DNA from: Balanoglossus misakiensis
Taxonomy: Eukaryota; Animalia; Hemichordata
Direction: 5' to 3'
DNA length: 64,000 nucleotides
Assembly (NCBI GenBank): GCA_040954595.2
Contig: CM082581.2
Location: forward strand, 6,068,699-6,132,698
Shown: positions 1 through 62,800 of the stretch, in pieces
How positions within the stretch are numbered: the first letter of the stretch is position 1
Layout: the number at the start of each line of letters is the position of its first letter
Notes under the pieces: generated by a model
What the model was told of the DNA's origin: nothing
Seen by the model: only the letters and a program-made list of their open reading frames with translations
The model's database searches: none
Program-made: the position numbers and the translations under genes

Positions 1-520
1 CGATCAGGCCCGATATTATCCACACGACCGTTGAAATGCACGCCAGCTTTTTCGCCGACATTTTTGCATCGTAAGTGAAGGGGTAGTTGATGGCAACGTA
101 GCGATCGATAGCGATGCAGCACAGGTGGTTGATCGACGAGGTGCACGCCACTATGTCGATCGCCAGCCAAAACTGGCAATAGACGCTGCCGAAGTACCAC
201 TTCCCGGCGAAGTGGTACGTGAGGGTGGTGGGCATGATGAGGGAACCCATCAGCTCGTCGGCGAAGGCGAGGTTCAGGATGAACAGGTTGGTCATGGTCC
301 GCAGGCGCCGGTACTTGAACACCGCCACGATGACGAACACGTTGCCCACGATCGCCGTCAGCGTAATCACGGCGAACACGATCCCCAGGACCATGTCGCC
401 GGCGCCCAGAGTCGACGCGGACTCGTCCTGTCCGCAGGAAGCGCCGCTGGAGTTGGCGAGGTCGCTCTCCGATGAAACATTGCACGGATTTCCCAGGTCC
501 ACATCATCAGGAGCGGCCAT
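1..520 (-). CDS. Aminergic class A GPCR (adrenergic/dopamine/octopamine/serotonin receptor-like), N-terminus to TM4; 3' end lies outside the window
   Basis: Manual translation from ATG at 520: MAAPDDVDLGNPCNVSSESDLANSSG...AIVGNVFVIVAVFKYRRLRTMTNLFILNLAFADELMG..MP..GKWYFGSVYCQFWLAIDIVACTSSINHLCCIAIDRYVAINYPFTY..VVWIISGLI. It contains TM1 GN, TM2 LAxAD, the amine-binding Asp3.32, DRY, the TM4 Trp and N-glycosylation sequons (NVS, NSS). A splice acceptor (tttatgcag, AG at 540-539) just upstream implies a 5'UTR intron. Missing from the ORF track because there is no stop in the window. Confidence 0.95.
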   Translation of the reverse strand, partial: MAAPDDVDLGNPCNVSSESDLANSSGASCGQDESASTLGAGDMVLGIVFAVITLTAIVGNVFVIVAVFKYRRLRTMTNLFILNLAFADELMGSLIMPTTLTYHFAGKWYFGSVYCQFWLAIDIVACTSSINHLCCIAIDRYVAINYPFTYDAKMSAKKLACISTVVWIISGLI

Positions 521-3500
521 CGTATCTCCAATTCACAACTGCATAAAACGCACCAACACAAAATTTGAGGGTGATTTCTGTATGAGGTAATCTAGCGTGA
601 TAACGACGATATGTGTCGCCGTTACTAGGTGCAAGAAGAGTAATACGTGCATAGATTCGATATCAAGCGTTGCCTGTCTAACAAACGTCGTTCCTTACCC
701 GTATGCAAGGTGCAAACTTAATATTTTTTGAAAACTTTCAGAAGTTCCGAGCGGAAAAAGGCTTGACTGAATAGGCGAACACCTGTTAACGCCACTGCTG
801 GACTCGCCGGTACAGGAAAGTGAAACTGCCGCTCGGTGTGACTGACGTGCTCTCTCCTCCCCGAGATAATCGCCCATGAAAACGAGAACGACGGGACATG
901 AATTGAATATTTCAATATTTGCAGGTACCAGCTTCGCTCGGTCTTGTGCGGATGTAGTACTCAAAGCGACAACGTTAACATCACGGTGAATGAACCTCTA
1001 TTTCCCCATATAGCTTCGGCTATACGCAGTGTGTGTAAGGTCGGTTGTCGACGACGCGTGCCGCTCAGAGGTGAACGTTGCCAGTTCCTGGAGAGAGGTG
1101 GCGCGAATAGTATTCCGCCGCCGCGGCCGTTTGCTAGTGTACCACCGGTGCGAATGTACAGCGAGACACCACGGCATGCCGTTAGACGCCACTTAACGAC
1201 TGAAAAACATCTTGGCACAAAATCAATACGAATCCATACATCGGCATCGATCTCTTGTGGGGAAATGCAAGTGCGACGATGTGCCGAACGCGGTGGCCAA
1301 TCCACAAATGACTCGATAACACCACATTGCGCGTGTACTTCCCCCAAGTATCCGCACAGCGCATGCGCGAAATGAGAGTTATCTTGGCTGGCTTTTCCTG
1401 ACCTCCCTATCTTCGCACAAGGGAAGCTGGCATGTGCTCTTGAGGATGCATTCAAAAACTGACCGACGATTGCGAACTTAATCTGGTGTATGTGCCATTT
1501 CGCTTTCACAGTTTAAAATAATCGCCGTGAAATTTATGCATGGCGGCTATCCAAGTCGTTGCCCAGCAGTAAGCATATGACAACAACTTGTTATTTTTCA
1601 TGGCGGGAAGCTTGGGATAACAAGGCTCCTGATTTGTCCTTCGCCAGGAGAAAAACGCCCTCAAAGTACAAAGACAACATAACCTGAATAAAGGTCGACA
1701 CTCTACCCAATGTCAGATATTTTCAGTACACACCGAGTAAATATCATGTGTTGCCACAGAAACAATTTTCGCGACAGCTTGCGAAGGCGATACTTCGCCA
1801 CAGGAAACGGTGTGACCGAAGTCATCACATTTCAACACTAGCCCTGCGCAGCACACACTGGCCCTAAATCCATCGCGGTTCAACTGATCGACGATCAACT
1901 TAATCGAAAGGGAATTCTAGTTCAACAAAAGAGAGCATTTATACCAGATGATAAGGTATTATCTCTTTACCCATGCATTAAATCTTAAAATTAACAAAAA
2001 AATGTGTTTTTGAGTCGACACCAGGGATTGGGCAATGTTTATAGCTGTACTCAGAACTTGAACAGTCTGCGCTGGGTGGCTGTTTACTGTGTCAAAACAC
2101 AACGCCGACACATGCCTGTATGAATATTTCACACTGATTTTCCCAACTCTCTATAACAGAGATGGCTGAAAATGACGCTCGCGTGACACCCCGGCGGTAA
2201 CAGCTGGCATCAGCTTCGGCTGGATTTACTGGTATAGATAATAAGCCCTAGATTCTGTCAAACATTTGGAAGAAGTAAAATCGTAAACCAGAATGAAAAA
2301 AACGCACCAAAGACTGAGCCAGCCTATGGACAGGTAATGTTTGGGGGAATTAGTAATGCATGTATTTCTGTTGCGACTCACACACAAAAATACAATATAC
2401 GTCTTTTTAAAGCGATTGTCGTGAAAATTAGGTCGAATTTGCTGGAATTGAAGTCAACACTTCACACAGTTGATTTCTTGCAACGGACATGGTAGCTCAA
2501 GTACAATGTACCGTGATGGAATGACTATTAAAGCCAGCGAAAGTGCGATCGTCTTCACAGTTCTCGTCGAGGTGTTAATTGTTTTGAATTATGCAAGACA
2601 GGGCGGCCGCTGTGTGGAGATGCCCCAAGGGCCAGATGGCGTATGCTCCAGCCGGCATTCACTTGCGCTTTCACCGAACCTCCCATTGTCAAGCATTGCA
2701 AAACACGTTACGTCACCAGCAAGTGTTTTCCCCGCCTGGTGGCCACGTATAGTGACACCCGGACAACCGACACAATGAACTCCCCATTTGACGTTTGCTC
2801 CCACGGCAATGATGGCATCACGATTTACTAAAGAAAACAAGCATTATATACGCTCACAACCTGTGACGCACAAGTACAAGAATTGTCCCCTCAATTCTGA
2901 CGCTTTACAATTGTAAGGGAAATTTAAATAGTCGCAATTTTATGCTATTGCCAAGACACAACTGACGACAGCAGAACTGGTATAATTCGAAGCTTTTTGT
3001 CTAATTACTACAGGATTATGTCATTTCCGCATTGCTAACACAGGACTACTGGAATCGCCGATTTTCATTGTGTTTGTGTTATTTGTGTCACGGTTGAAGA
3101 GCGGAATGATCTGTTTTTGTGTGACAAATTCTTGCCCTTGTGGTTGTGGAATGAAAACACTGTAAAAGCGGATCTGGTAATGTCAACGACTATAGGGGCA
3201 TTTGAGAGGCTTTAGATTGAAATGAACAGGGAAGGCCCGTACTTGCGGAATCTGTGCGCCGTCGGCCATGGAAATCCGCAGCAAACCGGTCCGTCAAAAC
3301 CATTCATCTTCATCGTCGACCGATGTTGTCACCTACACCCCGGCGACGGTGCGGGGAATGGGCAAAAGCGTCGCCGGCGGAATTGAAGAAAAGCCCCGAC
3401 AAATCCGCCGCCGATGCCCGCTGGCTTTATTGGAGGGAAAAGTCGAATCGATCTCGATGGGAGCAATGACGGCATCGGCGGTGCCGGTGATTTACTTGGT

Positions 3501-24496: not shown

Positions 24497-25795
24497 GTAA
24501 GTACATACTTGCAGTAAAATGTTTCATCGGTAAAGTAAGTGTTCTGACTTATATTTGTTAGACAAAGCCCAATATTTATTTTAAAGCGTGCTCAAACTTC
24601 ACGTCACCGGAAAGGGTTAAATTCGTGAAAACATTCATAAACATGGTTTAAAAATCGAGAATAAATCAACTGGTGTAGGTTAATTACAATGAACTAAGAA
24701 AATCCAGATCTCTTCGATTTGACTACTTCTATACATGTACTTGGATGCTACTTTGAGCGCGTGCGCGTGCAATAATTGTTTTAAGTCTGCTTTGCAGTAT
24801 TCTAAATACCCGGGATAGTATTGCTCCGACACGGGCCCATTTTTAGAACGCTTACTTTGTCTTTTCGCTTCTGGGGTTTCCCGTGTCGTGTTTACAAATT
24901 TCAGTGCGTAAACAATGTCTTTCTGCCAGATAAATGAAACATTTCAGATGGGCTCCGGCAGCTCCGACGTCATGACCCGCAGTGACAGCGCAAATGGAAC
25001 TCCTTTGTGGCGCGGCTCCAGATTCGCCGAAGTCGACTTACTTTCCGAGAAAAAGAAACGAAAAGTGAACTAGGTCAATGGCGGCGTCAATTGAGGGAAA
25101 TTCCCTAAAATTTAGCGAAAACATCCAGGGTTTTTTCTCTCCCTATATTTCGCGTTGGGGTTACGAAATGTACACTTTCAGCGATTACGCCAACCCATGA
25201 TCGTATTTTAAGCACATTTTACGGTAAACACGACGAATTGTGACTTGAACAATCCGTATAAGCGCGGGTGGCGCTCTATACGTCAACAAGGGTAGCGTGT
25301 TCAACCCTGACCCAGTTACGCCTTCCCAATGGACCCTTGTTTTCGCTTCGGGGTCCAAATTTAAATAGACAGCGAACAAAATGGCGGTGACGGTTGCCAA
25401 TAGTGATATCTGCGCGGTCGAAAAACACATTCGTAACAAGGCGACCATATTGAAACTGACGCCATTGCCACGAAAGAATAATCAAAGCGGTTTGTAAATT
25501 AAAAATTAACCCAAATAGACATTCCGATACATCTGGTGACTATGATGCACCGTTGGACCGATACTCATTTGATATAATAACAGCTGCAAAATGAAAGTAG
25601 TCGAAATATTTAATTTTTTTGTCCGATGTGACCTAAAGTGAAGATGTTCTTCTACACTGCTGCTTAGTAAACAAACATTTGGTCATTTAAAGACGCCGTG
25701 TTACTTATCAAGTGACTAGCGAAATGATATTTCACACAAGAACAATTAATCCCATATTTTACATGCGTTTTCTTTCGTATCTGTCTTCGTTGCAG

Positions 25796-25865
25796 AATGA
25801 TCAGGCGGAGATCTATGCAGACTTCATCCGCCAAGATATTATTTCAGACATACAGACGCTCTTGG
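25796..25865 (+). CDS. ETS paralog A, coding exon 2 (pre-PNT helix)
   Basis: ttgcag|NDQAEIYADFIRQDIISDIQTLL|gtaagg; phase 0/1; homologous to SDIENL in paralog B. Confidence 0.85.
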
Positions 25866-26016
25866 GTAAGGGCGTACAAACAGGTGGGTGTTGCTATTGG
25901 CAATACACAATTTGAAAACTATATCGACCGGAGATGTATATTGATAGAAGCGAGAAGTCATCTCGTCTTTTTATTTTACATGGAATTTTTTTTTTTGATA
26001 TTTTACAAATTCACAG

Positions 26017-26262
26017 ATTGCCCCAATTGGACCGTGCCCTGCGTGTCAAAATTTCTGACTTTTGTCAACCAGAAGTTTGATTTGAAAAACAAGTTCCCAG
26101 CGCTGGCCGAGAAATACTCAATAGACGGCTACAAATTGTGCTCCATGTCGAAAGAACTGTTCACAGAAACATTCAACAACTATAATTGCCAAAACGGCGA
26201 CACTCAGGGTCTTTTTCACGATGTAGAGATGGTTACAGGGTACATTGAATGTCTGAAAACGG
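26017..26262 (+). CDS. ETS paralog A, coding exon 3 (Pointed/SAM domain)
   Basis: cacag|DCPNWTVPCVSKFLTFVNQKFDL...IDGYKLCSMSKELF...GYIECLKT|gtatgt; PNT pattern 'W...V..(W/F)L' and 'G..LC.(L/M)S...F'; phase 1/1. Confidence 0.9.
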
Positions 26263-26459
26263 GTATGTACGTGTATATAGTATATAGCTAAAGACATGTA
26301 TAATCGAGTCGCTCTTGGTACCAACATAATGGCCTTCTGTGGCATTTCTATGTTTTGAAAAGGGTTCGCTCGATTTCGCTTATTTTTCCGAGGGATGGGT
26401 AGCAGCCCTTCGCAAATCTGCGGACTCTATATAATATACATTTTCATCTCTTATTTTAG

Positions 26460-26656
26460 TGACAGAATGTCAACTTCCAGACCCAGCTCCAAACATAGGT
26501 GATACTTGTCAAAAGAAAGCATCAGATGAGAGTGATCAGCAGCTAGATTTGCTCGACTCCAGTGACCAGATACCCCCAAAAAGTACTTGTTTAAATTTAC
26601 TAGAAAGCGTACTACCTACATGTACTACTCAAGATGAGAAGTGTCTATACACATTG
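26460..26656 (+). CDS. ETS paralog A, coding exon 4 (acidic linker)
   Basis: ttttag|VTECQLPDPAP...KCLYTL|gtgagt; phase 1/0. Confidence 0.82.
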
Positions 26657-26699
26657 GTGAGTTGGGAAGGCTGGGCGAGCTGAAATACCGACAGAAAGC

Positions 26700-26706
26700 A
26701 GGCAGG

Positions 26707-26737
<31 letters not shown>

Positions 26738-26892
26738 TGTGTCTGGTTCTAGGACAGGCACGCAGGCAACTGCAGACAGGCAGAAATACAGACAGAGATA
26801 TGTAGTGTGAGACAGACAGACAGACAGACAGACGGGCAAAGGTAATACAGATACAGAGGAAGACAGAAATGGACTGGGAGAGACAGAGATAC
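26700..26892. repeat. Degenerate (GACA)n tract in an intron of ETS paralog A
   Basis: Directly visible. Confidence 0.85.
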
Positions 26893-27042
26893 ATGTAGCT
26901 AAAGAGGTTCATGACATGAAGCTGGCAACCTACCGTTCCACTGAGACCTCTGGTTTATTTATCCTTGGAGACAAATTGCTTACAAAATGGACGGGTTCAA
27001 CACAACTTTGACTCTTAACATGTTTTTGTCTTGTGTATGAAG

Positions 27043-27139
27043 GAAGACGAAGTTGTCACAGTTCGGGAACTAGAAGCGAATAATGGCGGACCAACCAGAA
27101 GAAAAAGAGGTCGGCCTCGAAAGGAACGACCATTGAAAG
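27043..27139 (+). CDS. ETS paralog A, coding exon 5 (AT-hook)
   Basis: EDEVVTVRELEANNGGPTRRKRGRPRKERPLK|gtaaat; RGRP core; phase 0/1. Confidence 0.88.
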
Positions 27140-27465
27140 GTAAATGTGTCCTATCATTCTAGAGCCAATAATGCATCTTCACAAGAAAGTAACAATTCGA
27201 TTTGCGTAGGATTCGAAATGTAGGTGCAAATTTTGACTCGAAAACTTCGCAGACAAAGTTCAAGTAGACTTTTAGTAAATCGTGTTTGGAAAGAAGTTTG
27301 GTGCATGTACATGTATAAGGACTGCGGCTCATAGTCACGTGAAGGCACAGGACCAGAACACATTGTTGTCGTTTTCACAAAGTCTGCGCATGACTGTAAG
27401 AACGTGTGTTTATCACTGCCCCTGACACGGCGACTTTAACATATTATCGAATGTTAATATTGCAG

Positions 27466-27770
27466 TCAAGAGGAAAAAGAAGAAAATCCTGTGGCAGTTC
27501 CTTTGTCGACATCTCGATGGCGGTGAATTCAAACACTGCGTCGAATGGATCAGCAGATCAGAGGGCCTGTTCCGCTTCATCAGCAGAGAAAAGGAAGCCA
27601 TCGCCAAACAGTGGGGCAAGGAGAAAGGCCACAAGCGAGTGATGACGTATCAAAAGATGGCGCGCGCGCTCAGGTACTACATCCAGAAGGACGCCATGGA
27701 GAGATGTCGGGGCAAACTGCACTACAAATTCCGCCGAGAGACGATGATTAAATATCAAAACATGACGTGA
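27466..27770 (+). CDS. ETS paralog A, terminal exon (ETS DNA-binding domain)
   Basis: ttgcag|VKRKKKKILWQFLCRHLDGGEFKHCVEWISRSEGLFRFISREKEAIAKQWGKEKGHKRVMTYQKMARALRYYIQKDAMERCRGKLHYKF...NMT*, TGA at 27768-27770. This frame is not in the ORF track. Confidence 0.95.
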
Positions 27771-31184: not shown

Positions 31185-31489
31185 TCACACAGTGCCATAC
31201 ACACGCACGACCCCCGGGCAGAATTTGAAGTGCAGTTTCCCCCGGCACTTCTCCATCACCTTCTTCTTTTTGTAGTCCCTCATGGCGCGCGCCATTTTCT
31301 GATACGTCATCAGTTTCTTGTGGCCCTTCTCCCGCCCCCATTGGTTGGCGATGGACTCCTTCTCTCTGCTCACAAACCGGAAGAGGCCCTCAGATCGGTT
31401 GATCCAGCGAACGCAGTGTTTGAACTCGCCACCGTCGAGGTGTTCCAACAGGAATTTCCAAAGTATCTTCTTCTTCTTTTTCTTCGGTT
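31185..31489 (-). CDS. Spi/PU.1-type ETS factor paralog B (PNT + AT-hook + ETS, about 304 aa), terminal exon (ETS domain)
   Basis: ctag|[83 protein letters not shown]..GTV*; same 305-nt coding length and phase as paralog A. Confidence 0.95.
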
Positions 31490-31712
31490 CTAGACCCAAA
31501 ATAAAACCACCAGAAAGCATGTATAAATGAACATGATAAAACGTTTGAAACCGACTTTCATGTTGTGGATTACTTGATCGTGAACAAAAAAGACAAAATC
31601 AGTACGGAGTCTCAGCTGAGTCACATTAAAGATGTTGACGACGCCACTATTCAGGATTTTCCATCAGAATATTTGATTATTTCATAACTACGGTATTCAA
31701 CACTCGGCTTAC

Positions 31713-31827
31713 CTCCTTCCGGCCGGTATTTGCGTGGCCTTCCCCTTTTCCTCTTGACAGGTTGTTCCGTCGACCCATCATACTTCAAAGTTTCCTTAGG
31801 GACGGATAGTGATGACATCATCATAAA
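31713..31827 (-). CDS. ETS paralog B, coding exon 5 (AT-hook)
   Basis: ttgcag|FMMMSSLSVPKETLKYDGSTEQPVKRKRGRPRKYRPEG|gtaagc; phase 0/1. Confidence 0.9.
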
Positions 31828-32356
31828 CTGCAAACACAAGAAAAACGTCAACTTCATCAGTAAAGTAATGACCCAGGGTTGTCTGGTGTACTCAGTAATG
31901 CAAACACTCCAACTATTTTCGATTTAAGAAATAAAAAGAAGACGTTTCTCCTCTACATACGGTTTATAACATTGTATAGACAAAACTGCCATTTTGACCA
32001 GTGAAATTGTCCAGTGCTCGACTCATTATAATAGCTGTGCTTCACTACAGTTCCATGAATAGCAAAATAAGAATACGCCATTTTCATGACCCCTACATGA
32101 CCTTACATCCTCGTACTTCCGTTGTCAAAATTCTCCATCAGGTTGACTAAACCTCTACAAAAACTCTTAAATTGCAAGTGAAGTCAATAATCTACGTACT
32201 GAATTACAAAAGAGACTCTTTTTCAAGCCTCATTTAAGATGTTTCTTGTCCCACAATGGTGAATTTTGACAACGCAATACCAACGGAAGTACAAGGATGT
32301 AAGGTCATCTGGGGGTCATGAAAGTGACCTATTGCAAACAAAGATGTCTGTCTTAC

Positions 32357-32415
32357 TTCAGTCTCGGGAAAGACAACAGCACTGGCGTCGAAATCATGGC
32401 AGTTGTCAGGCGTTT
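32357..32415 (-). CDS. ETS paralog B, coding exon 4 (short linker)
   Basis: ttttccag|ETPDNCHDFDASAVVFPETE|gtaaga; phase 1/0 bridges the flanking exons. Confidence 0.82.
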
Positions 32416-32540
32416 CTGGAAAACAAACTGAGAAAAAAGACACACATCAGATAATTTGCTTTGAAGGAGGACTGAACCACAAAATAATCAAAGAATACTG
32501 CCATTTTAATAAACCCCAAACCATAGAGGGTTCGAATTAC

Positions 32541-32747
32541 CTGTGATCCAACATTCTAGATAACCCCTGATGATATCCGCGTCTTTACCAAAACTCTCCC
32601 GGAACTCTCCTTCTGACAAGGAGCATAGCGTGCTTCCATTCATTCCAATTTCGCCGGCCAGTGACGGGATGTTGTTGTCCAAGGCAAGCCTCTCATTCAC
32701 AAATCCTAAAAAAGTCACTACGTCATGTACATCCCATTCATAACAAT
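32541..32747 (-). CDS. ETS paralog B, coding exon 3 (Pointed/SAM domain)
   Basis: tttcag|CYEWDVHDVVTFLGFVNERLAL...MNGSTLCSLSEGEFRESFGKDADIIRGYLECWIT|gtaatt; phase 1/1. Confidence 0.9.
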
Positions 32748-32776
32748 CTGAAACAATAAACAAACACACTGTTGTT

Positions 32777-34055
32777 GAAAATTCGCAAAGTCGAAAAATT
32801 GTCATTTTTGGATGATTTTCATGAGCTATAACCCATGATTTTTTCAAAAAATGACGAAATTTTGAAAATTCGCAAAGTCGAAAAATTGTCATGTTTGGAT
32901 GATTTTCATGAGCTATAACCCATGATTTTGTTTCAAAAAAGACGAAATTTTGAAAATTCGCAAAGTCGAAAAATTGTCATTTTTGGATGATTTTCATGAG
33001 CTATAACCCATGATTTTTTTCGAAAAATGACGAAATTTTGAAAATTCGCAAAGTCGAAAAAATTTCATTTTTGGATGATTTTCATGAGCTATAACCCATG
33101 ATTTTTTTCAAAAAATGAAGAAAATTTGAACTTTCGCAATGTTGAAAAATTGTCATTTTTGGATGATTTTCATGAGCTATAACCCATGATTTTTTCAAAA
33201 AATGACGAAATTTTGAAAATTCGCAAAGTCGAAAAATTGTCATTTTTGGATGATTTTCATGAGCTATAAGCCATGATTTTTTCAAAAAATGACGAAATTT
33301 TGAAAATTCGCAAAGTCGAAAAATTGTCATTTTTGGATGATTTTCATGAACTATAACCCATGGTTTTTTTCAAAAAATGACGAAATTTTGAAAATTCGCA
33401 AAGTCGAAAAATTGTCATTTTGGATGATTTTCATGAGCTATAACCCATGATTTTTTCAAAAAATGACGAAATTTTGAAAATTCGCAAAGTCGAAAAATTG
33501 TCATTTTTGGATGATTTTCATGAGCTATAACCCATGGTTTTTTTCAAAAAATGACGAAATTTTGAAAATTCGCAAAGTCGAAAAATTGTCATTTTTGGAT
33601 GATTTTCATGAGCTATAACCCATGATTTTTTCAAAAAATGACGAAATTTTGAAAATTCGCAAAGTCGAAACATTGTCATTTTTGGATGATTTTCATGAGC
33701 TATAAGCCATGATTTTTTCAAAAAATGACAAAATTTTGAAAATTCGCAAAGTCGAAAAATTGTCATTTTGGGGTGATTTTCATGAGCTATAACCCATGAT
33801 TTTGTTTCAAAAAAGACGAAATTTTGAAAATTCGCAATGTCGAAAAATTGTCATGTTTGGATGATTTTCATGAGCTATAAACCATGATTTTTTTCAAAAA
33901 ATGACGAAATTTTGAAAATTCGCAAAGTCGAAAAATTGTCATTTTTGGATGATTTTCATGAGCTATAACCCATGTTTTTTTTCAAAAAATTACGAAATTT
34001 TGAAAATTCGCAAAGTCGAAAAATTGTCACTTTTGGATGATTTTCATGAGCTATA
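32777..34055. repeat. Tandem array of an AT-rich ~87-bp unit (about 14.7 copies), flanked by a 61-bp direct repeat
   Basis: Unit gaaaattcgcaaagtcgaaaaattgtcatttttggatgattttcatgagctataacccatgattttttcaaaaaatgacgaaatttt; 15 unit starts spaced 86-88 bp apart. Flanks 32716-32776 and 34056-34116 match with 2 mismatches. Confidence 0.97.
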
Positions 34056-56291: not shown

Positions 56292-57556
56292 TAGGGCGAA
56301 GGACCAGACCGGGCCTTCCAGTTTACGTATCATTCAGAGAAAGGGAAATCCGTCGCCAGTTTCGACTATAAGACAAACCATGAAACCGATACCAGTTTTA
56401 TGGGACCGATTTGAAGAAATATTGAACGTCAGGCCTCTGTGACCGTCACGCCTCTCTGAAGTATCTGAAGGGAGAGAGACTTTGGGGTAAATCCGCGGAT
56501 TACCAACCTGGCACACTTACAACAGTTCCAAATACATTGTACACCTTCTCATGTACTCGCAAAGCAAGCTAAGCCACCCCTTCGAGTAATACATACAAAG
56601 TACTGTAGTCGTGTCAAATGAGACAGGAATTCCAGATATCAGTAAAAAATAATATTAGCACAGAGGTTTGCTTATTTCTGAATTGGTCTCTACTTCATCC
56701 ATAAATTGGAGTGGCCAGACAGTTTTATTGTCTGCCAGGTGAAGTGACGACTTGTATAATAAAGATCGGGTCAACTGAGGACGTCCTTGGTCATTGTTGC
56801 GCATGTGCAATGAAAGTTGAATACTGCATGTGACTGCACCGAATTCACACCAATACCAGTGAAAACGAAGGTACGTCTATTAGCTAACTATCCTAACCTC
56901 ATGTTCTAAAAAATGAACGTCGGTCATGATCATAAACCGCCAAGTTGCGACACTGCTGCGCGTGTGACGTACAATGATACCAGCGTGACGTGTCTGTCTT
57001 GGTATGCGGGGCAGCGGTGGTATCGATCGATCGAATGCACCTGGCAACATCCGGGTGTAACATTGGGGCGATCTCTAATCTCCAGATCCGTGTGTATGAG
57101 CAAACTGGATTATGAGACTTTCGTGTAGTCTTCAAGCACGACTTCAGCATGTCCACGTCCGGGTTGTTTGATATCTAAGAAGGTGACGTGGGGACCCATG
57201 AGTTTCGTTTCGTGTGAGAGTTCTCCAAGGTCACGATGTGACCCTACTGGGTGTGTCACCGCTGTTTGCCATATCTCGTCTCGTATCTGCATTGGTCACT
57301 TGGCATTAGTGGATCCGGAGCGTTTATCATTGAGTGCCGGGGCACAAGACTGGGCTTTGCTCAGGCTTAGTTTTATCATAGACCCGCCCCAGGGTCTACG
57401 ATTTTATCTTGCTTAGATTATGTTGAGAAATAACCAACGACCACAGGTATTATGGCCAACTTTTGTAAAATCATTTAATTGTCTAAGGATTTCAAGTCCC
57501 TAATTTTGCCCGCCCAAATGATTAATTTTCAGTGACGTGACGGGACAAGTGCCAAA

Positions 57557-59029
57557 ATGGCTGCCGGAATCGACTTTGCGCTCGGCGCTGAGCTAAGTAA
57601 TAACTTGCAATTGCTGACCTGTTATGTCTGTACGAACCCAATGACGTCACCGAAGCTCCTACCTTGTTCCCATACGTTTTGTGAGCAGTGTCTCGAACTG
57701 TGGGTGGGGAAGAACCAAGGAAAGCTGCCGTGCCCCGTGTGCAGAGAAATGTGTCCGATGCCCCCTCAGGGGGTCAAGGGGCTGCGAAACAACCAATTCG
57801 TGGAAGGTTTGCTGGAGATATTCTCCAAGAGAGAAACCGAAGCGGTGATGAGATCGTGTGAAACCTGCCGGCAACCGGCGGTGGTGTGGTGCGTCGACTG
57901 CTGCCAGTTCTTCTGCCAAGACTGCCGCAGGTCGCACGAAATTGTTCGCTCGCTGAGCACTCACAGACTCTTGACTATGGAGGAGTACAACAGCGTCGAC
58001 GCGCCCAGGGCCTGCCAGGCGCATCCAGGTAGCCTGCTTGAGCTGTTCTGCGACCGTTGCCAGGCGACCCTTTGCAGAAAATGCGCCGAGGAAAACCACG
58101 GCGGGGCGTATCACGAGGTTGTACCCGTGGAAGAAGCGGTGAGAAAGTACCTCCCACTACTTAAGAACTACGCTTTCCAGGCGGACACATTGATGACGTC
58201 ACTGAAGAACGACGAAGAGTTGCTCGAAAGTACGGTCGATGATTTGAAGAAGCAAGAGCGAGAAATCACCGACAGAGTGTCGGCAGAAGCAGCCGAAGCT
58301 ATAAGGAAGATAAAAGAAGAAGAAGAACGACTTCTTCAAGAAGCAGCGAGAATCTCCGGCGAGAAAAAATCCCAGGCTCGCATCGGACTGGAAGCGATTA
58401 AGCTCGACATTGAACGTATGAAAAATGTACAAACCTACACCTCTGACCTACTGCAGACTGGAAACCGGTGTGACGTATTGAACAGAAAGAAAGCTTTGGA
58501 CGAAGGGTTCGAACACGTCAAACAAGCAGCCGCTTCACTTCAGAGGAAAATCCCACCGCAGGCCGTCTTAAAGTTTGAGATTAACGACTCGTTCTTCGCG
58601 GGGAGCACCGCCATGGGCAGTATCAGTTGCGAAGAGCGACCGCAGGTTTTCACCCAGGCGGACGACGTCGACGCGCTGCCGAAGTCGGGAGAGCCCTCGC
58701 AGTCGACGCCCGGGCAACCAGCAAACCGAACCAAGGACAGCAACACGACAGTCACGTGTCAAATTTGCCACTGCGAAGTTCACCGCAGAAAAACCCTACC
58801 CTGCAGTCATACATTCTGTGCGAATTGCATCGATTTAGAATTTGGCGGACAAACCAACGGTTCGTTCTGCCCACAATGCGGCTACGAAATCCATCCTGTA
58901 ATGAAGTTTGGGAAAATGCCGAAAGGAACTTTCGATCATCGTCTGGATCAGTCCCTTGTTCTTCCCGGCTATCCGAGAAACACCGGGTGCATCGTCATTG
59001 AATATCACTTTCCTGGCGGAATACAAGGG
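57557..59029 (+). CDS. TRIM-Deltex fusion E3 ubiquitin ligase (about 586 aa), coding exon 1: RING, B-box1, B-box2, coiled coil, second RING, start of Deltex C-terminal domain
   Basis: CYVC..LPCSHTFCEQC..CPVCR (RING-HC); CETC..WCVDC..FCQDC..H..H; CQAH..FCDRC..LCRKC..H..H; E/K-rich coiled coil; CQIC..LPCSHTFCANC..CPQC (RING-HC); GKMPKG..LPGY..GCIVIEYHFPGGIQG; donor gtaggt at 59030. Acceptor ttttcag lies 25 nt before the ATG. Confidence 0.95.
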
Positions 59030-59243
59030 GTAGGTCAAGTTTGCTACACGTATTTCTCACCCAAGCAATCACAAAGTTCATTACTCCGTAAATGTCATGT
59101 AGAATGATGTAACCTTAATATAGCTGGTTCATGAACTCCATAATTTAGTGGTGGATTTCTTTAATGCATTGGAAAACCAAGCTCACTTCAACATAATTTT
59201 GGCTAAGCGGGAAATCCTTATTTTGGAAATATTATTTTCACAG

Positions 59244-59458
59244 GAAGGCGACCCAAGCCCTGGCAATAAATACCGGCGTGCCACCTTCATGGCGTACCTA
59301 CCGGCCACTGACGAGGGGAAGGAAGTGCGCAAATTGCTGCACACCGCTTTCAAACGAAAGCTGACGTTCACCATCGGCACATCACGTGACGGAACCCCAG
59401 ACTGCATCATTTGGAATGGAATCGACCACAAGACAAGCACAACAGGTGGACCAGAAAG
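59244..59458 (+). CDS. TRIM-Deltex fusion, coding exon 2 (DTC domain)
   Basis: ttcacag|EGDPSPGNKYRRATFMAYLPATDEGKEVRKLLHTAFKRKLTFTIGTSRDGTPDCIIWNGIDHKTSTTGGPE|gtacgt; phase 0/2; classical DTC motifs AYLP..EG, FTIG, WN.I.HKT. Confidence 0.95.
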
Positions 59459-59751
59459 GTACGTGACTCTGAGAATTGTACATCATGGTAAATTTGTCCC
59501 AGCGATTCCAAGTTCAGCGAACCGATCACAAAGCCAATTCTTTAAAAAAAAATACTATCACAGACGTTTATACCCATGAGCGGTTTCACCGTGACTCCAA
59601 CGTGACCTTTACGTCCTTGCATTTTGTTGGTATGGGTTCAGCAATTCTTTCTTTCTTTGACTCTGTTATATACTGGGTCAACTCTATTACATCCACAGTC
59701 CCAATGAATGACTATTCATTTATGGCTAATGGATGCATGTGTCTTCTTCAG

Positions 59752-59824
59752 GAATGGATATCCCGATCCGGGTTACTTACGGCGAGTTAAAAAGCAGTTG
59801 GCAGCCAACGGCGTGAACTTGTGA
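59752..59824 (+). CDS. TRIM-Deltex fusion, terminal exon
   Basis: cttcttcag|RNGYPDPGYLRRVKKQLAANGVNL*, TGA at 59822-59824; Deltex GYPDP.YL..V...L...G terminus. Confidence 0.95.
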
Positions 59825-62800
59825 ACGAATGCGATAGGTCTACATCGGCGAGCAGAAAGTATGGCAGATGGCCGGCGCCAATACCTCGTTCATTGTCATA
59901 ACGAAGGCACTTCTGACAGAGTGTGTTTGACTACGTCTACAGACCAATAGAAAGTTTATAATGTATATTACATTTTAAGCACGGAAAAAATGTTTTTCCT
60001 TCTGTGTCTTTTCTCCAAAGCGAGCAAGGTTTTCAATTCGACTTTAGTAAGTTTAGTTAATCTGACCGTAGTGGGCGCTGTGTAAGAAGAGTGGAAAGTG
60101 TTGCAAAGTTATGTACATGTACGTCACTTTTCGGGCTAAAACACATTAGACATAATAATAAGTTAATGCACCAATACGCCTTTTTATAATTGCGGCAAAA
60201 TTATAGGAGAATATGTAACGATAACAGCTAGGCTCGGTTGAACGAAAATGGACTCGCTGTTTCATGATTTTCCCCCTTACTAAGACATGATACTAGTCAG
60301 CAGTCCTTGGGCATGATTACAAGCGACTGTGGAATTAAATGGACTCAACTGCGCATACCTCGCCAACAACTAGTAATCGCTGCTTATTCACGATACTTAG
60401 ATAAATATTTGCGTGCGATGGAGGTCGAAACCTCAATGAATCACGCATGGATGAGTCCATCATCTACTTAGAGACCTCATAAGGACTATTAAGCAGTGCG
60501 TTCTTATCACTGACGTCATCCTGAACTGGTTCCTTCATGGCACTGGCCGTGAAGTGTGCCGATATCACAGGGATCTGCGAGGCTTGTCCTTGCACTCCGC
60601 CCAGAACACGTACATGTACACTTTCAAGCTCAGATAGTGTAAGTCACCAGTGCTGTTAGGAATTGCCGCTTTCCGATCATTTTCTTCCATTTGCAGTGTT
60701 TGTATTACACTGTATATGCAGTGGATGTCACTGTCCTTTTGTTGTTGTTATTGTTGTTGTGTTGTGTTGAACTCGTATTCTCAATAATGAAAATTGAGAT
60801 ATAGATTTCCACTTGGATGCAAGTGTCATTATGATAGGTTATTCAACAGAACTTGCGTATACTATACAATCGGAACTACACAGGTATAATTTTTGTTTGG
60901 TAACAGAGATGTATTGAATTTTGTTGATAAACAGGGTGGCTAAGTCTTCTAATGGCCATATGGTGGCAGTATGGCATTATTTAATATTTATTTCATGTGC
61001 CTATCACTTACATGCATGTAGTCATATTTCAGTTACGCCATGTTGAATCAAAATGCGCTAATTTAAATTGACGACGGCGACTGAGTCACCGAATTCTCTG
61101 CTGGTACTGATATCAGTACTCTTAAGTCTGTTTATATGCCCTTAAGACTGGTGTCCTCAAAATATACTTACCTCAATAAAAACCAGGCACGGAATGAAAC
61201 CCAATAAGGGTTAGCCTGTTTGCTATCAATGGACCCCGGGTCAGAGAAATTTAATTCGACGAGAAACACCGGGACATAGCGTTACGTTGATATTCTACAA
61301 AGTCATTTTCTCTCTCGGTCGATCGAAAAGGTTTGAAGCCGTCAAAAGTCGGACGCGACGATTTCTTTAATTTTGCAGTACCGTCTTTGACTTCCATCAG
61401 CGCGAGTGCTTGTAAGTGGATTTGAAGAATGCATGGGATCACGGGGAAGCTATTTATTTATATTTGCACTAAGGTTATATAGGCTGTCCTCATTACTTAA
61501 CTTCTCTTGGTGGGTCTTTTGGTCAATCACAACCACGTGTTCGACTTATAATTAATTGACATGCGTTAACCCAAGCGGAGTCCTGAAAGTTTATCCCACC
61601 GATTTATTCGAAAAACGAACTGGCGAGGTTCATAGCAGCTCAGGCGGGTCACCATAGTGAAGGGGCACACCCATCCTAAATCTCTGCCAACGTCACGCGC
61701 CTTCGTAATAGAAAAGTGATCGCGAAACGTCAGCGCGGAATCTGCCATAAGATAGGGTTGCCTAGACACAACCGACCTATCATAGTGTCCCTAACCAAAC
61801 GATAATAAACTGTATCTCTCGCAAAGAAGAAAAAAGTTTCACACGAGAACGGGGCCTTTGGAAAAAACTTTGGCGAGGATGGCGCCGCAGCGAACCGGGA
61901 TAGTTGTCATCATGATTGTGGCTTTCGCGGTCGCGAAGGGTAAGTGCAGGATTTACTGACTTGTGTGCTCGGGACCATGCTTCGTATATGATAGGCTTGG
62001 TCGTCCTTCGGTATGAACAGCATGTGAATCATTCGGGACATGGCAATGTTTTGATCGTAAAACGAATCATGCACAGAGTCGCGATTTTAAACATGCTACA
62101 AACGCCGTGGAGTTTTATAGCAGAAGTTTAAGTGTGTATATTGACTGGTGAAACGGTATTCAAAGAACACAACGGATATAATATAACTAGAGTGTGTAAC
62201 CTATATCAATGGGATGCAATGACATGTATAGTTCAAATTTGCGGCTAGATTGGCGTTCCTTCCCTTGTCCGTCACGCGTTCTCCTTCGCCATGGTATCCT
62301 TCTCATTCGGGATAGGGTACCCCCCCCCCCCCCCATTGTACCGTGACGTCATCTGCTTAATAGTAAGAACTTAAAGTGACCATAAACGAACATAAGGTAA
62401 AACTCCAGGTTGTATTACTGTGGGTTTCGAGTTCAAGGAAAAACAAACATTTGTGCCACGCTTGGCGGATACTTCATCATGATGGGTTCAAAGGACACTT
62501 TTGGGGAAATGATTAGAAAACAAACGACACCACACGAAGTCAACGCATTTCAAATTAACCCAGGGAAACCTGTGATAGTGTTTGGTTGACAGAAATAAGA
62601 GAGAGTCGATGGGATAGTGAGAAAATAACATGCCTCGTCATCTCGTTACGCTGGGAGAATTTGCAGGGGAATAGACCTACCAGCCAACTGTGAAAAATAA
62701 TTTCTCTGCATAATAAAATAACGACAACATTTTGGAACTATTTTGAGATAATTACATGCGAATAAACTGCGCACAACTCCAAGCATAGTGCAGGTATAAC

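What the first reader, a model, noticed from the sequence alone, without database searches (positions are those of the whole stretch)
59410..59800. DTC domain has substitutions at the residues used for ADP-ribose/nucleic-acid ubiquitylation
Seen: WNGIDHKT and NGYPDPGYLRRVKKQL. Known: Deltex DTCs typically read WNxIHHKT...GYPDPxYLxxVxxEL; the first His (DTX2 H582/DTX3L H707) and the Glu (DTX2 E608/DTX3L E733) are implicated in ubiquitylating the ribose hydroxyl. By my manual alignment these are Asp and Gln here, the aromatic before GYPDP is Asn, and HPNPG is DPSPG, while the surrounding scaffold is intact. Inference: a binding-only (pseudo-catalytic) or re-specified DTC, perhaps serving as the substrate adaptor of the TRIM RING.
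Basis: partly seen in the sequence, partly recalled or inferred. Interest (0 to 1): 0.7.

Follow-up and report, generated by a model that had tools for sequence, protein, structure and literature searches.

The report
Acorn-worm ubiquitin ligase with rewired pocket
This gene, probably from an acorn worm, encodes a predicted ubiquitin ligase whose Deltex end-domain has replaced the residues that human relatives use to grip and tag ADP-ribose; a known acorn-worm species has matching replacements in an otherwise well-kept domain, so the pocket has likely been re-purposed for a different, still unidentified target.

Summary
Observation confirmed and extended. The finding lies in exons 2-3 of an intact, spliced three-exon gene (57557-59824, +; 586 aa): RING, two B-boxes, coiled coil, second RING, DTC. 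Against DTX2/DTX3L, catalytic His582/707 is Asp552, Glu608/733 is Gln578, and adenine-stacking His594/Tyr719 is Asn564. These are not sequence errors. A Ptychodera flava orthologue (XP_070540252.1) has Glu/Gln/Asn/Tyr at the same four sites and the same short loop, and its DTC is 74% identical to the window's versus 47% elsewhere. The domain therefore changed early and was then conserved. Three of four side-chain ADP-ribose contacts are gone, so 'binding-only' is weakly supported. More likely the pocket abandoned ADP-ribose and now reads another ligand for the N-terminal TRIM RING (inferred, untested). His-less DTCs recur: 40 of 155 related domains, including lamprey, killifish and sponge. None of those 155 lost all four residues. 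My literature searches found no description of such domains. New variant of a known kind; interest 0.5.

The parts
57557..59029 (+). Exon 1 (aa 1-491): RING1, two B-boxes, coiled coil, linker, RING2 and first part of the DTC
   Evidence: ORF; Pfam; donor GTAGGT at 59030; joint 59028>59243 in X3 contig
57620..57745 (+). RING1 (C3HC4, aa 22-63), linchpin Arg63 (Arg56 in P. flava); likely the working E3 RING (inferred)
   Evidence: Pfam zf-C3HC4; motif scan; linchpin role from PMC7615817 section 9
57857..58129 (+). B-box 1 (aa 101-137) and B-box 2 (aa 151-191)
   Evidence: Pfam ANCHR-like_BBOX and zf-B_box
58133..58561 (+). Coiled coil (about aa 193-335)
   Evidence: Long helices H186-295 and H306-324 in the AlphaFold2 model of the orthologue; match to TRIM3/TRIM28 chains
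58757..58882 (+). RING2 (C3HC4, aa 401-442), all eight zinc ligands kept, linchpin Gly442 (Lys in P. flava), Deltex-type
   Evidence: human DTX linchpins are K/Q/G (PMC7615817 section 9)
58910..59821 (+). Deltex C-terminal (DTC) domain, aa 452-586, over three exons
   Evidence: Pfam PF18102 on all three exon pieces; orthologue model superposes on 3pg6 at rmsd 1.0-1.2 A over 135-136 columns
59030..59243 (+). Intron 1, 214 nt, GT-AG, phase 0
59244..59458 (+). Exon 2 (aa 492-563)
59250..59252 (+). Asp494, in place of the His of HPNPG; Tyr in P. flava
59286..59288 (+).
59376..59393 (+). Phosphate-binding loop (aa 536-541), one residue short, conserved Thr-Thr replaced; also short in P. flava
59412..59414 (+). 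Trp548 = DTX2 Trp578, kept
59424..59426 (+). Asp552, in place of catalytic His582/His707; Glu in P. flava
59459..59751 (+). Intron 2, 293 nt, GT-AG, phase 2; holds a short dispersed-repeat fragment at about 59590-59640
59752..59824 (+). Exon 3 coding part (aa 563-586 and stop)
59753..59755 (+). Asn564, in place of adenine-stacking His594/Tyr719; Asn in P. flava
59795..59797 (+). Gln578, in place of catalytic Glu608/Glu733; Gln in P. flava

Best explanation
The gene encodes a TRIM-RING-DTC fusion protein whose DTC has replaced the catalytic His-Glu pair and three of four ADP-ribose-contacting side chains, so it likely neither ubiquitylates nor tightly binds ADP-ribose, and the conserved rebuilt pocket likely serves as a substrate reader for an uncharged or cationic, non-ADP-ribose ligand that would be ubiquitylated on lysine by the N-terminal TRIM RING. 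Shown: gene structure, splicing, the substitutions, matching ones in P. flava, conservation of the altered DTC, linchpin residues. Predicted: fold kept (model of the orthologue). Inferred from human DTX mutants: loss of ADP-ribose chemistry and binding. Inferred, untested: a new ligand, and RING1 as the working ligase. History (inferred): a DTX3L-like RING-DTC was joined to a TRIM N-terminus in an acorn-worm ancestor that kept canonical DTX paralogues; the pocket changed on the stem branch and was then held by purifying selection.
For: (1) Residue mapping to DTX2/DTX3L with contact list from PMC7442474 and mutant data from PMC7615817 and PMC11460948. (2) P. flava orthologue P0272 has Tyr/Glu/Asn/Gln at the R535/H582/H594/E608 sites and the short loop: same residue class at all four sites although the proteins are 53% identical. 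(3) DTC 99 of 134 identical against 205 of 435 for the rest (p 4e-8) and 107 of 179 for the zinc domains (p 0.011). (4) Quick tree: the pair forms a clade (SH-aLRT 99) with a long stem (0.63) and short tips (0.21, 0.22; median tip 0.38). (5) Of 56 columns conserved in 85 canonical DTCs, six depart in both species, and five of those are the Arg, His, Glu or the phosphate loop. (6) Window copy versus the second version in run X1: 10 synonymous and 7 non-synonymous changes listed in the DTC, dN/dS about 0.22. (7) AlphaFold2 model of the orthologue: DTC pLDDT mostly above 90; rmsd 1.0-1.2 A to the DTX3L DTC. (8) No Glu in the C-terminal helix of either species that could stand in. (9) RING1 linchpin Arg, RING2 Gly/Lys. 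(10) Another acorn worm, Glandiceps talaboti, has canonical DTCs (P0102, P0148).
Against: No ligand is identified and nothing was assayed. Only two species carry the gene in my data. Trp548, Thr555 and (in the window) Ser538 are kept, and S567/S568 bind phosphate through main-chain atoms, so weak nucleotide binding may remain. Asn at the stacking site occurs with intact His/Glu in P0062 and P0099, so that change alone is tolerated. The enrichment of departures at pocket columns is partly circular: p 8e-5 to 1e-3 with the defining columns, p 0.21 without. High DTC identity could reflect fold constraint; no orthologous canonical DTC pair was available as a control. The model was folded with an alignment of mostly canonical DTCs and is of the orthologue, not the window protein. 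RING2 keeps all zinc ligands, and Gly/Lys linchpins are normal for active human DTXs. Other acidic changes (Asp494, Asp540) are not conserved, so there is no general charge reversal.
Confidence: 0.5

Rival explanations
1. Binding-only reader: the DTC still binds ADP-ribose or nucleic-acid 3' ends, cannot esterify them, and hands ADP-ribosylated proteins to RING1 for lysine ubiquitylation.
For: Trp548, His553, Thr555, Gly536 and the fold are kept; phosphate contacts at S567/S568 are main-chain; Asp/Glu could still hydrogen-bond a ribose hydroxyl (inference).
Against: Arg535, His582 and His594 equivalents are all replaced, the loop is shortened, and P. flava has Asp at the Ser567 site. Most other His-less DTCs keep Arg and the aromatic residue (38 of 40) and are better candidates for binding-only; this pair is not like them.
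Confidence: 0.17
2. Dead pocket, living domain: the pocket has no ligand, and the DTC is kept for its fold or another surface (packing on RING2 or the coiled coil, E2 contact, a protein partner).
For: His and Glu tend to be lost together across DTCs (32 both lost, 6 His only, 16 Glu only, 88 neither, of 142; rows not independent), as expected from relaxed constraint. Positions 494, 538 and 540 differ between the two species or versions. P. flava has a RefSeq isoform (X2, P0152) without an intact DTC.
Against: Asn and Gln are identical, and acid and aromatic classes are kept, at the four pocket sites in two species whose proteins are 53% identical; unconstrained pocket residues would be expected to drift.
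Confidence: 0.16
3. Still an enzyme, new substrate: Asp552/Glu acts as the base in place of His, braced by Gln578, and RING2-DTC ubiquitylates a hydroxyl of a neutral, non-phosphorylated ligand such as a glycan held on Trp548 and Phe506.
For: Acid kept at the base position in both species; lampreys independently have Glu there (P0111, P0276). His-Glu to Asp/Glu-Gln is a complementary swap (inference). RING2 is intact and Deltex-like. Aromatic plus Asp/Glu/Asn/Gln is the usual make-up of sugar-binding sites (recalled knowledge; search gave no citation).
Against: PMC7615817 reports that all tested substitutions of His582 or Glu608 impaired NAD+ ubiquitylation, and that a His recurs in known hydroxyl-ubiquitylating enzymes. 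No candidate substrate is known.
Confidence: 0.12
4. Artefact, decaying pseudogene, or normal Deltex activity.
For: All reads come from one sample; none of the runs is on record as RNA.
Against: Open 586-aa frame, both introns joined at GT-AG in X3 contigs, matching changes in an independent RefSeq protein, dN/dS about 0.22. E608Q and H707A are tested loss-of-function changes.
Confidence: 0.05

Closest known systems
Human DTX3L / DTX3 RING-DTC (PDB 3pg6)
   Same: C3HC4 RING followed by DTC; best PDB sequence match of exon 2 (E 3.9e-16); orthologue model rmsd 1.0-1.2 A; same GGP-xx-x-GYPDP loop length; non-Arg linchpin.
   Different: H707->Asp, Y719->Asn, E733->Gln, Arg->Phe, shorter phosphate loop; N-terminus is a TRIM (RING-B-box-B-box-coiled coil), not RRM/KH-like domains.
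Human DTX1/DTX2/DTX4 RING-DTC (PDB 6y5n, 6y22, 6y3j)
   Same: DTC fold; W578 and T585 equivalents kept.
   Different: R535, H582, H594 and E608 equivalents replaced; no WWE domains; RING-HC rather than RING-H2.
Ptychodera flava XP_070540252.1 ('DTX3L-like isoform X1', P0272)
   Same: Whole-length orthologue (304 of 569 identical), same architecture, same class of residue at the four pocket sites, same short loop.
   Different: Glu for Asp, Tyr for Phe, Asp at the Ser567 site, Lys linchpin in RING2. Named automatically; I found no paper on it.
Haliotis rufescens XP_048249660.1 (P0106), TRIM-macrodomain-RING-DTC
   Same: TRIM N-terminus joined to a RING-DTC C-terminus, so the fusion type is not unique.
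   Different: Has two macrodomain hits and a fully canonical pocket (Arg, Trp, His, His, Glu); does not group with the acorn-worm pair in the DTC tree.
Other His-less DTCs: lamprey (P0111, P0276), killifish/poeciliid (P0043, P0088, P0025), sponge Oscarella (P0286), unnamed tandem-DTC proteins
   Same: Catalytic His replaced (Glu, Ser, Leu, Pro), usually with the Glu too.
   Different: They keep the stacking aromatic and mostly the Arg; separate origins on the tree; none is a TRIM fusion.
TRIM2/TRIM3/TRIM56-type RBCC ligases
   Same: RING-B-box-coiled coil with linchpin Arg.
   Different: The C-terminal substrate-reading slot is filled by RING2-DTC instead of filamin/NHL repeats.

Membership tests
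Deltex (DTX) E3 family, by architecture | C-terminal DTC domain (PF18102) | tested here: met
   Exon 2 79.3 bits, cut-off 25; orthologue 143 bits over 132 of 133 positions; fold match to 3pg6
Deltex (DTX) E3 family, by architecture | RING directly before the DTC with intact zinc ligands | tested here: met
   C3HC4 at aa 401-441
ADP-ribose/nucleic-acid-ubiquitylating DTX enzymes | Catalytic His (DTX2 H582 / DTX3L H707) | tested here: not met
   Asp552; Glu in orthologue
ADP-ribose/nucleic-acid-ubiquitylating DTX enzymes | Catalytic Glu (E608 / E733) | tested here: not met
   Gln578 in both species
ADP-ribose/nucleic-acid-ubiquitylating DTX enzymes | ADP-ribose contact side chains R535, W578, H594/Y719 | tested here: not met
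   Phe506 and Asn564; only Trp548 kept
ADP-ribose/nucleic-acid-ubiquitylating DTX enzymes | Measured ADP-ribose binding and ester-linked ubiquitylation | not testable with these tools
   Needs ITC/NMR and E1-E2-E3 assays
TRIM (RBCC) E3 ligases | N-terminal RING, one or two B-boxes, coiled coil, in that order | tested here: met
   Pfam; helices in model; TRIM2/3/56/28 chains
TRIM (RBCC) E3 ligases | Antiparallel dimer and RING-dependent lysine ubiquitylation | not tested
   Linchpin Arg63 present; activity and dimer not tested
DTX3L orthologues proper | RRM/KH-like N-terminus and PARP9 partnership | tested here: not met
   N-terminus is a TRIM; no RRM or macrodomain among Pfam hits; feature list from bioRxiv 10.64898/2026.04.23.720386 section 5

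The most novel reading that the evidence does not exclude
The Deltex catalytic pocket has been rebuilt with an Asp/Glu-Gln pair and an aromatic floor (Trp, Phe/Tyr) into a site for a neutral, phosphate-free hydroxyl ligand such as a microbial or exposed host glycan. That would make this a two-RING TRIM immune ligase that primes a non-protein target with ester-linked ubiquitin through RING2-DTC and extends chains through RING1, and the first Deltex domain with a substrate other than ADP-ribose or nucleic acid.
Probability: 0.1. Interest if true: 0.85.

Novelty: new variant of a known kind. Interest (0 to 1): 0.5.

Why it matters
The His-Glu pair is described as strictly conserved, but that statement rests on five paralogues from four vertebrates (PMC7615817, legend of Fig. 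S9). The data here show His-less DTCs arising repeatedly, and one conserved acorn-worm lineage that changed both the catalytic pair and the binding residues. It is a natural separation-of-function variant: it allows a test of whether DTC domains have ligands or roles beyond ADP-ribose and nucleic-acid ends, and of how a TRIM can adopt a former enzyme as its substrate-reading domain. It also means automatic 'DTX3L-like' names in invertebrates do not imply ADP-ribose ubiquitylation. The reach is limited by the narrow taxonomic range and the lack of any identified ligand.

Tried and rejected
No whole genome is held for this window, so canonical DTX paralogues in this species could not be counted; tblastn finds no second DTC in the window. 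Word-based protein search with exon 2 gave only 2 hits, and with aa 390-491 none; the HMMER search and the exon-1 search replaced them. No RNA holder is listed; X3 is called RNA-like only because its contigs join both introns. The Atlas search with the orthologue returned ordinary DTC clusters and no TRIM-DTC cluster. Earlier scan findings: none by sequence or by words. Literature: 'DTX3L'+'hemichordate' 0 papers; 'Deltex'+'DTC'+'pseudoenzyme' 0; searches listed nothing on TRIM-DTC fusions or His-less DTCs (listings only); no citation found for sugar-site residue make-up. Rejected: (a) general charge reversal of the pocket, because Asp494 and Asp540 are Tyr and Arg in P. flava and Asp540 is His in the second version; (b) a register shift that makes His553 catalytic, because that His is a separate near-invariant column (180 of 185) and the alignment has no gap there; (c) an insertion in exon 3 suggested by a loose end at 59764 in run X2, because the junction reads GATCGATC, typical of proximity-ligation libraries (recalled), and X1 and X3 run through it. 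The careful tree did not finish; the quick tree is reported. No complex was predicted, since no binding claim could be tested with that tool.

Full report
1. What is in the sequence. The finding covers parts of exons 2 and 3 of one gene on the + strand: exon 1 57557-59029, exon 2 59244-59458, exon 3 59752-59824, with GT-AG introns of 214 and 293 nt. The joined frame is 586 aa with no internal stop. Pfam finds RING (aa 22-62), B-boxes (101-137, 151-191), a second RING, and DTC (PF18102) on all three exon pieces, at consecutive profile positions 2-38, 42-110 and 114-133. Contigs of run X3 join 59028>59243 and 59456>59750 at GT..AG, cover exons and not introns (apart from a repeat), and show no other letter in the listed pieces. 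The three runs are one sample and none is on record as RNA, so this shows the spliced form exists, not its level.

2. Residue mapping. Exon 2 matches DTX3L (3pg6), DTX1 and DTX2 chains. Counting by hand along the printed alignments, one offset puts R535, S567, S568, W578, H582, H594 and E608 on the right letters of 6y22, and another puts H707, Y719 and E733 on 3pg6. W578 (Trp548) and T585 (Thr555) are kept. Papers: PMC7442474 (passages) lists W578 and H594 as stacking adenine, H582 as binding the ribose hydroxyl, and the R535 side chain and S567/S568 main chain as binding the diphosphate; S568A/H582A/H594A was made to abolish binding. PMC7615817 (passages, section 9 and supplement legends) proposes the His-Glu pair, finds all tested substitutions impair NAD+ ubiquitylation including E608Q, and bases 'strictly conserved' on five paralogues from four vertebrates. 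PMC11460948 (passages): H707A abolishes, E733A impairs and Y719A is defective in ssDNA ubiquitylation. PMC13714323 (passages) confirms the Arg, His and Thr contacts in DTX4.

3. How unusual. A HMMER search with exon 2 found 1512 proteins at E<=0.001; I analysed the best 150 plus one more, giving 186 DTC stretches, a set biased towards sequences like the query. His occupies the catalytic column in 141 of 185 (Asp 0), Glu in 100 of 157 (Gln 2), Arg in 178 of 186 (Phe 0), F/Y/H in 161 of 173 (Asn 2). Of 155 stretches with all four columns, 88 are canonical, 40 lack the His, and none lacks all four (31 stretches with a gap in a key column were dropped, and some Glu-less rows are gene fragments that read into the intron). 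His is present in 86 of 93 single-DTC proteins but only 25 of 53 stretches from two-DTC proteins, where Pro often replaces it. Named His-less examples are lampreys (His>Glu, Glu>Asp), killifish and poeciliids (His>Ser, Glu>Asp) and a sponge (His>Leu, Glu>Gln, Arg>Cys). A quick tree of 145 domains needs 17 changes of the His label, at least 7 forced by well-supported branches (few columns, many open forks). Loss of the His is therefore recurrent. Of the 40 His-less stretches, 38 keep both the Arg and the aromatic residue; this gene does not.

4. The orthologue. Among 138 hits to exon 1 (best 120 listed), one covers the whole query: Ptychodera flava XP_070540253.1, whose cluster holds the full isoform XP_070540252.1, P0272. 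The window is therefore probably from an acorn worm (inference). P0272 has Tyr, Glu, Asn and Gln at the R535, H582, H594 and E608 sites, the same short loop, and Asp at S567. Identity by region: RING1 56%, B-box 1 81%, B-box 2 52%, coiled coil 39%, linker 21%, RING2 51%, DTC 74% (99 of 134, against 205 of 435 elsewhere; p 4e-8). In the tree the two form a clade (99) with stem 0.63 and tips 0.21 and 0.22: change first, conservation after. Of 56 columns conserved in 85 canonical DTCs, six depart in both species: 494, 506, 539, 540, 552, 578. The enrichment for pocket sites is strong when the defining columns are counted (p 8e-5 to 1e-3) and absent when they are left out (p 0.21), so I give it little weight. 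A second version of the gene in run X1 (allele or paralogue) shows 10 synonymous and 7 non-synonymous listed changes in the DTC, dN/dS about 0.22 (five listed differences were not shown), none at Phe506, Asp552 or Gln578. An AlphaFold2 model of P0272 (69-row alignment; DTC blocks pLDDT 91-98) superposes on the DTX3L DTC at rmsd 1.0-1.2 A. The fold is predicted intact; the model is of the orthologue and leans on canonical rows.

5. The two RINGs. RING1 has the linchpin Arg in both species; RING2 has Gly or Lys. PMC7615817 reports that human DTX RINGs have Lys, Gln or Gly there, are suboptimal for lysine transfer, and rely on the DTC His-Glu pair for the hydroxyl reaction. With that pair gone, RING2-DTC is predicted to be poor at both reactions, which leaves RING1 as the likely working ligase and the DTC in the position where TRIMs carry their substrate-reading domain. 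This step is inference. TRIM-DTC fusion is not unique: an abalone protein (P0106) has TRIM, macrodomains, RING and a fully canonical DTC, and does not group with the pair. Another acorn worm, Glandiceps, has canonical DTCs, so the ancestral activity is likely kept by paralogues.

6. Mechanism and rivals. Best (0.5): ADP-ribose chemistry and most binding are lost, and the conserved rebuilt pocket (Trp, Phe/Tyr, Asp/Glu, Asn, Gln; no Arg) reads a different, uncharged or cationic ligand for RING1. Rivals: binding-only ADP-ribose reader (0.17); dead pocket in a domain kept for another surface (0.16); acid-for-His catalysis on a new neutral hydroxyl such as a glycan (0.12); artefact, pseudogene or normal activity (0.05). 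The sugar-site and cation-site resemblance is recalled knowledge, not a test. A general acidic reversal of the pocket is rejected, since Asp494 and Asp540 are not conserved.

7. Novelty. [quoted passage not shown] The P. flava protein is in RefSeq under an automatic name. Searches found no paper on His-less DTCs or on this gene. A 2026 preprint on DTX3L evolution (passages and section 5) reports the catalytic residues as conserved in the mammals it analysed, and a 2026 review (passages) has no mention of TRIM or invertebrate variants. Most subscription papers are not searched. Verdict: real, conserved, a new variant of a known kind; function inferred only; interest 0.5.

Noticed in passing
P0004, P0012, P0020, P0023 and about 25 similar unnamed ENA/JGI/Logan proteins: A large group of tandem-DTC proteins in which one DTC often has Pro in place of the catalytic His and frequently has no RING before it, while the other keeps His; many lack the Glu in both. 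They form their own clade (97). A possible active/pseudo DTC pair; no organism names available.
   Followed up: partly
P0111, P0276-P0281 (lampreys); P0043, P0024, P0025, P0088 (killifish, poeciliids): Vertebrate DTX3/DTX3L-like paralogues with the catalytic His replaced (Glu in lampreys, Ser in the fishes) and Glu replaced by Asp, shared across species (columns read for P0111, P0276 and the four fish proteins).
   Followed up: partly
P0106, Haliotis rufescens XP_048249660.1: TRIM + macrodomains + RING-DTC with a canonical catalytic pocket: an ADP-ribose reader, a Deltex enzyme and a TRIM in one chain.
   Followed up: partly
P0152, Ptychodera flava isoform X2: RefSeq isoform that leaves the frame right after the exon-1 end (GIQG) and so lacks an intact DTC; its tail appears to be another reading frame of exons 2-3.
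   Followed up: no
window 57400-60000, runs X1 and X2: A second version of the gene with about 12% or more difference in intron 1 and contig depth about 41 against 25 for the window version; a very divergent allele or a near-identical paralogue.
   Followed up: partly
window 57557-59029 and 59459: The whole TRIM part and RING2 lie in one 1473-nt exon, while intron 2 falls where several unrelated DTC gene fragments (P0016, P0032, P0092) also break off, suggesting an intronless TRIM block joined to an old intron-bearing DTX gene.
   Followed up: no
window 25728-27767 (+) and 31188-32976 (-): Two convergent, similar ETS-family genes, each with a SAM/Pointed exon and an Ets-domain exon (Pfam): an inverted duplication.
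   Followed up: partly
window 2-532 (-): N-terminal part of a rhodopsin-family GPCR (7tm_1), running off the window start.
   Followed up: no
window 59590-59640: Short fragment of a high-copy dispersed repeat inside intron 2 (very high summed depth and many loose ends).
   Followed up: no
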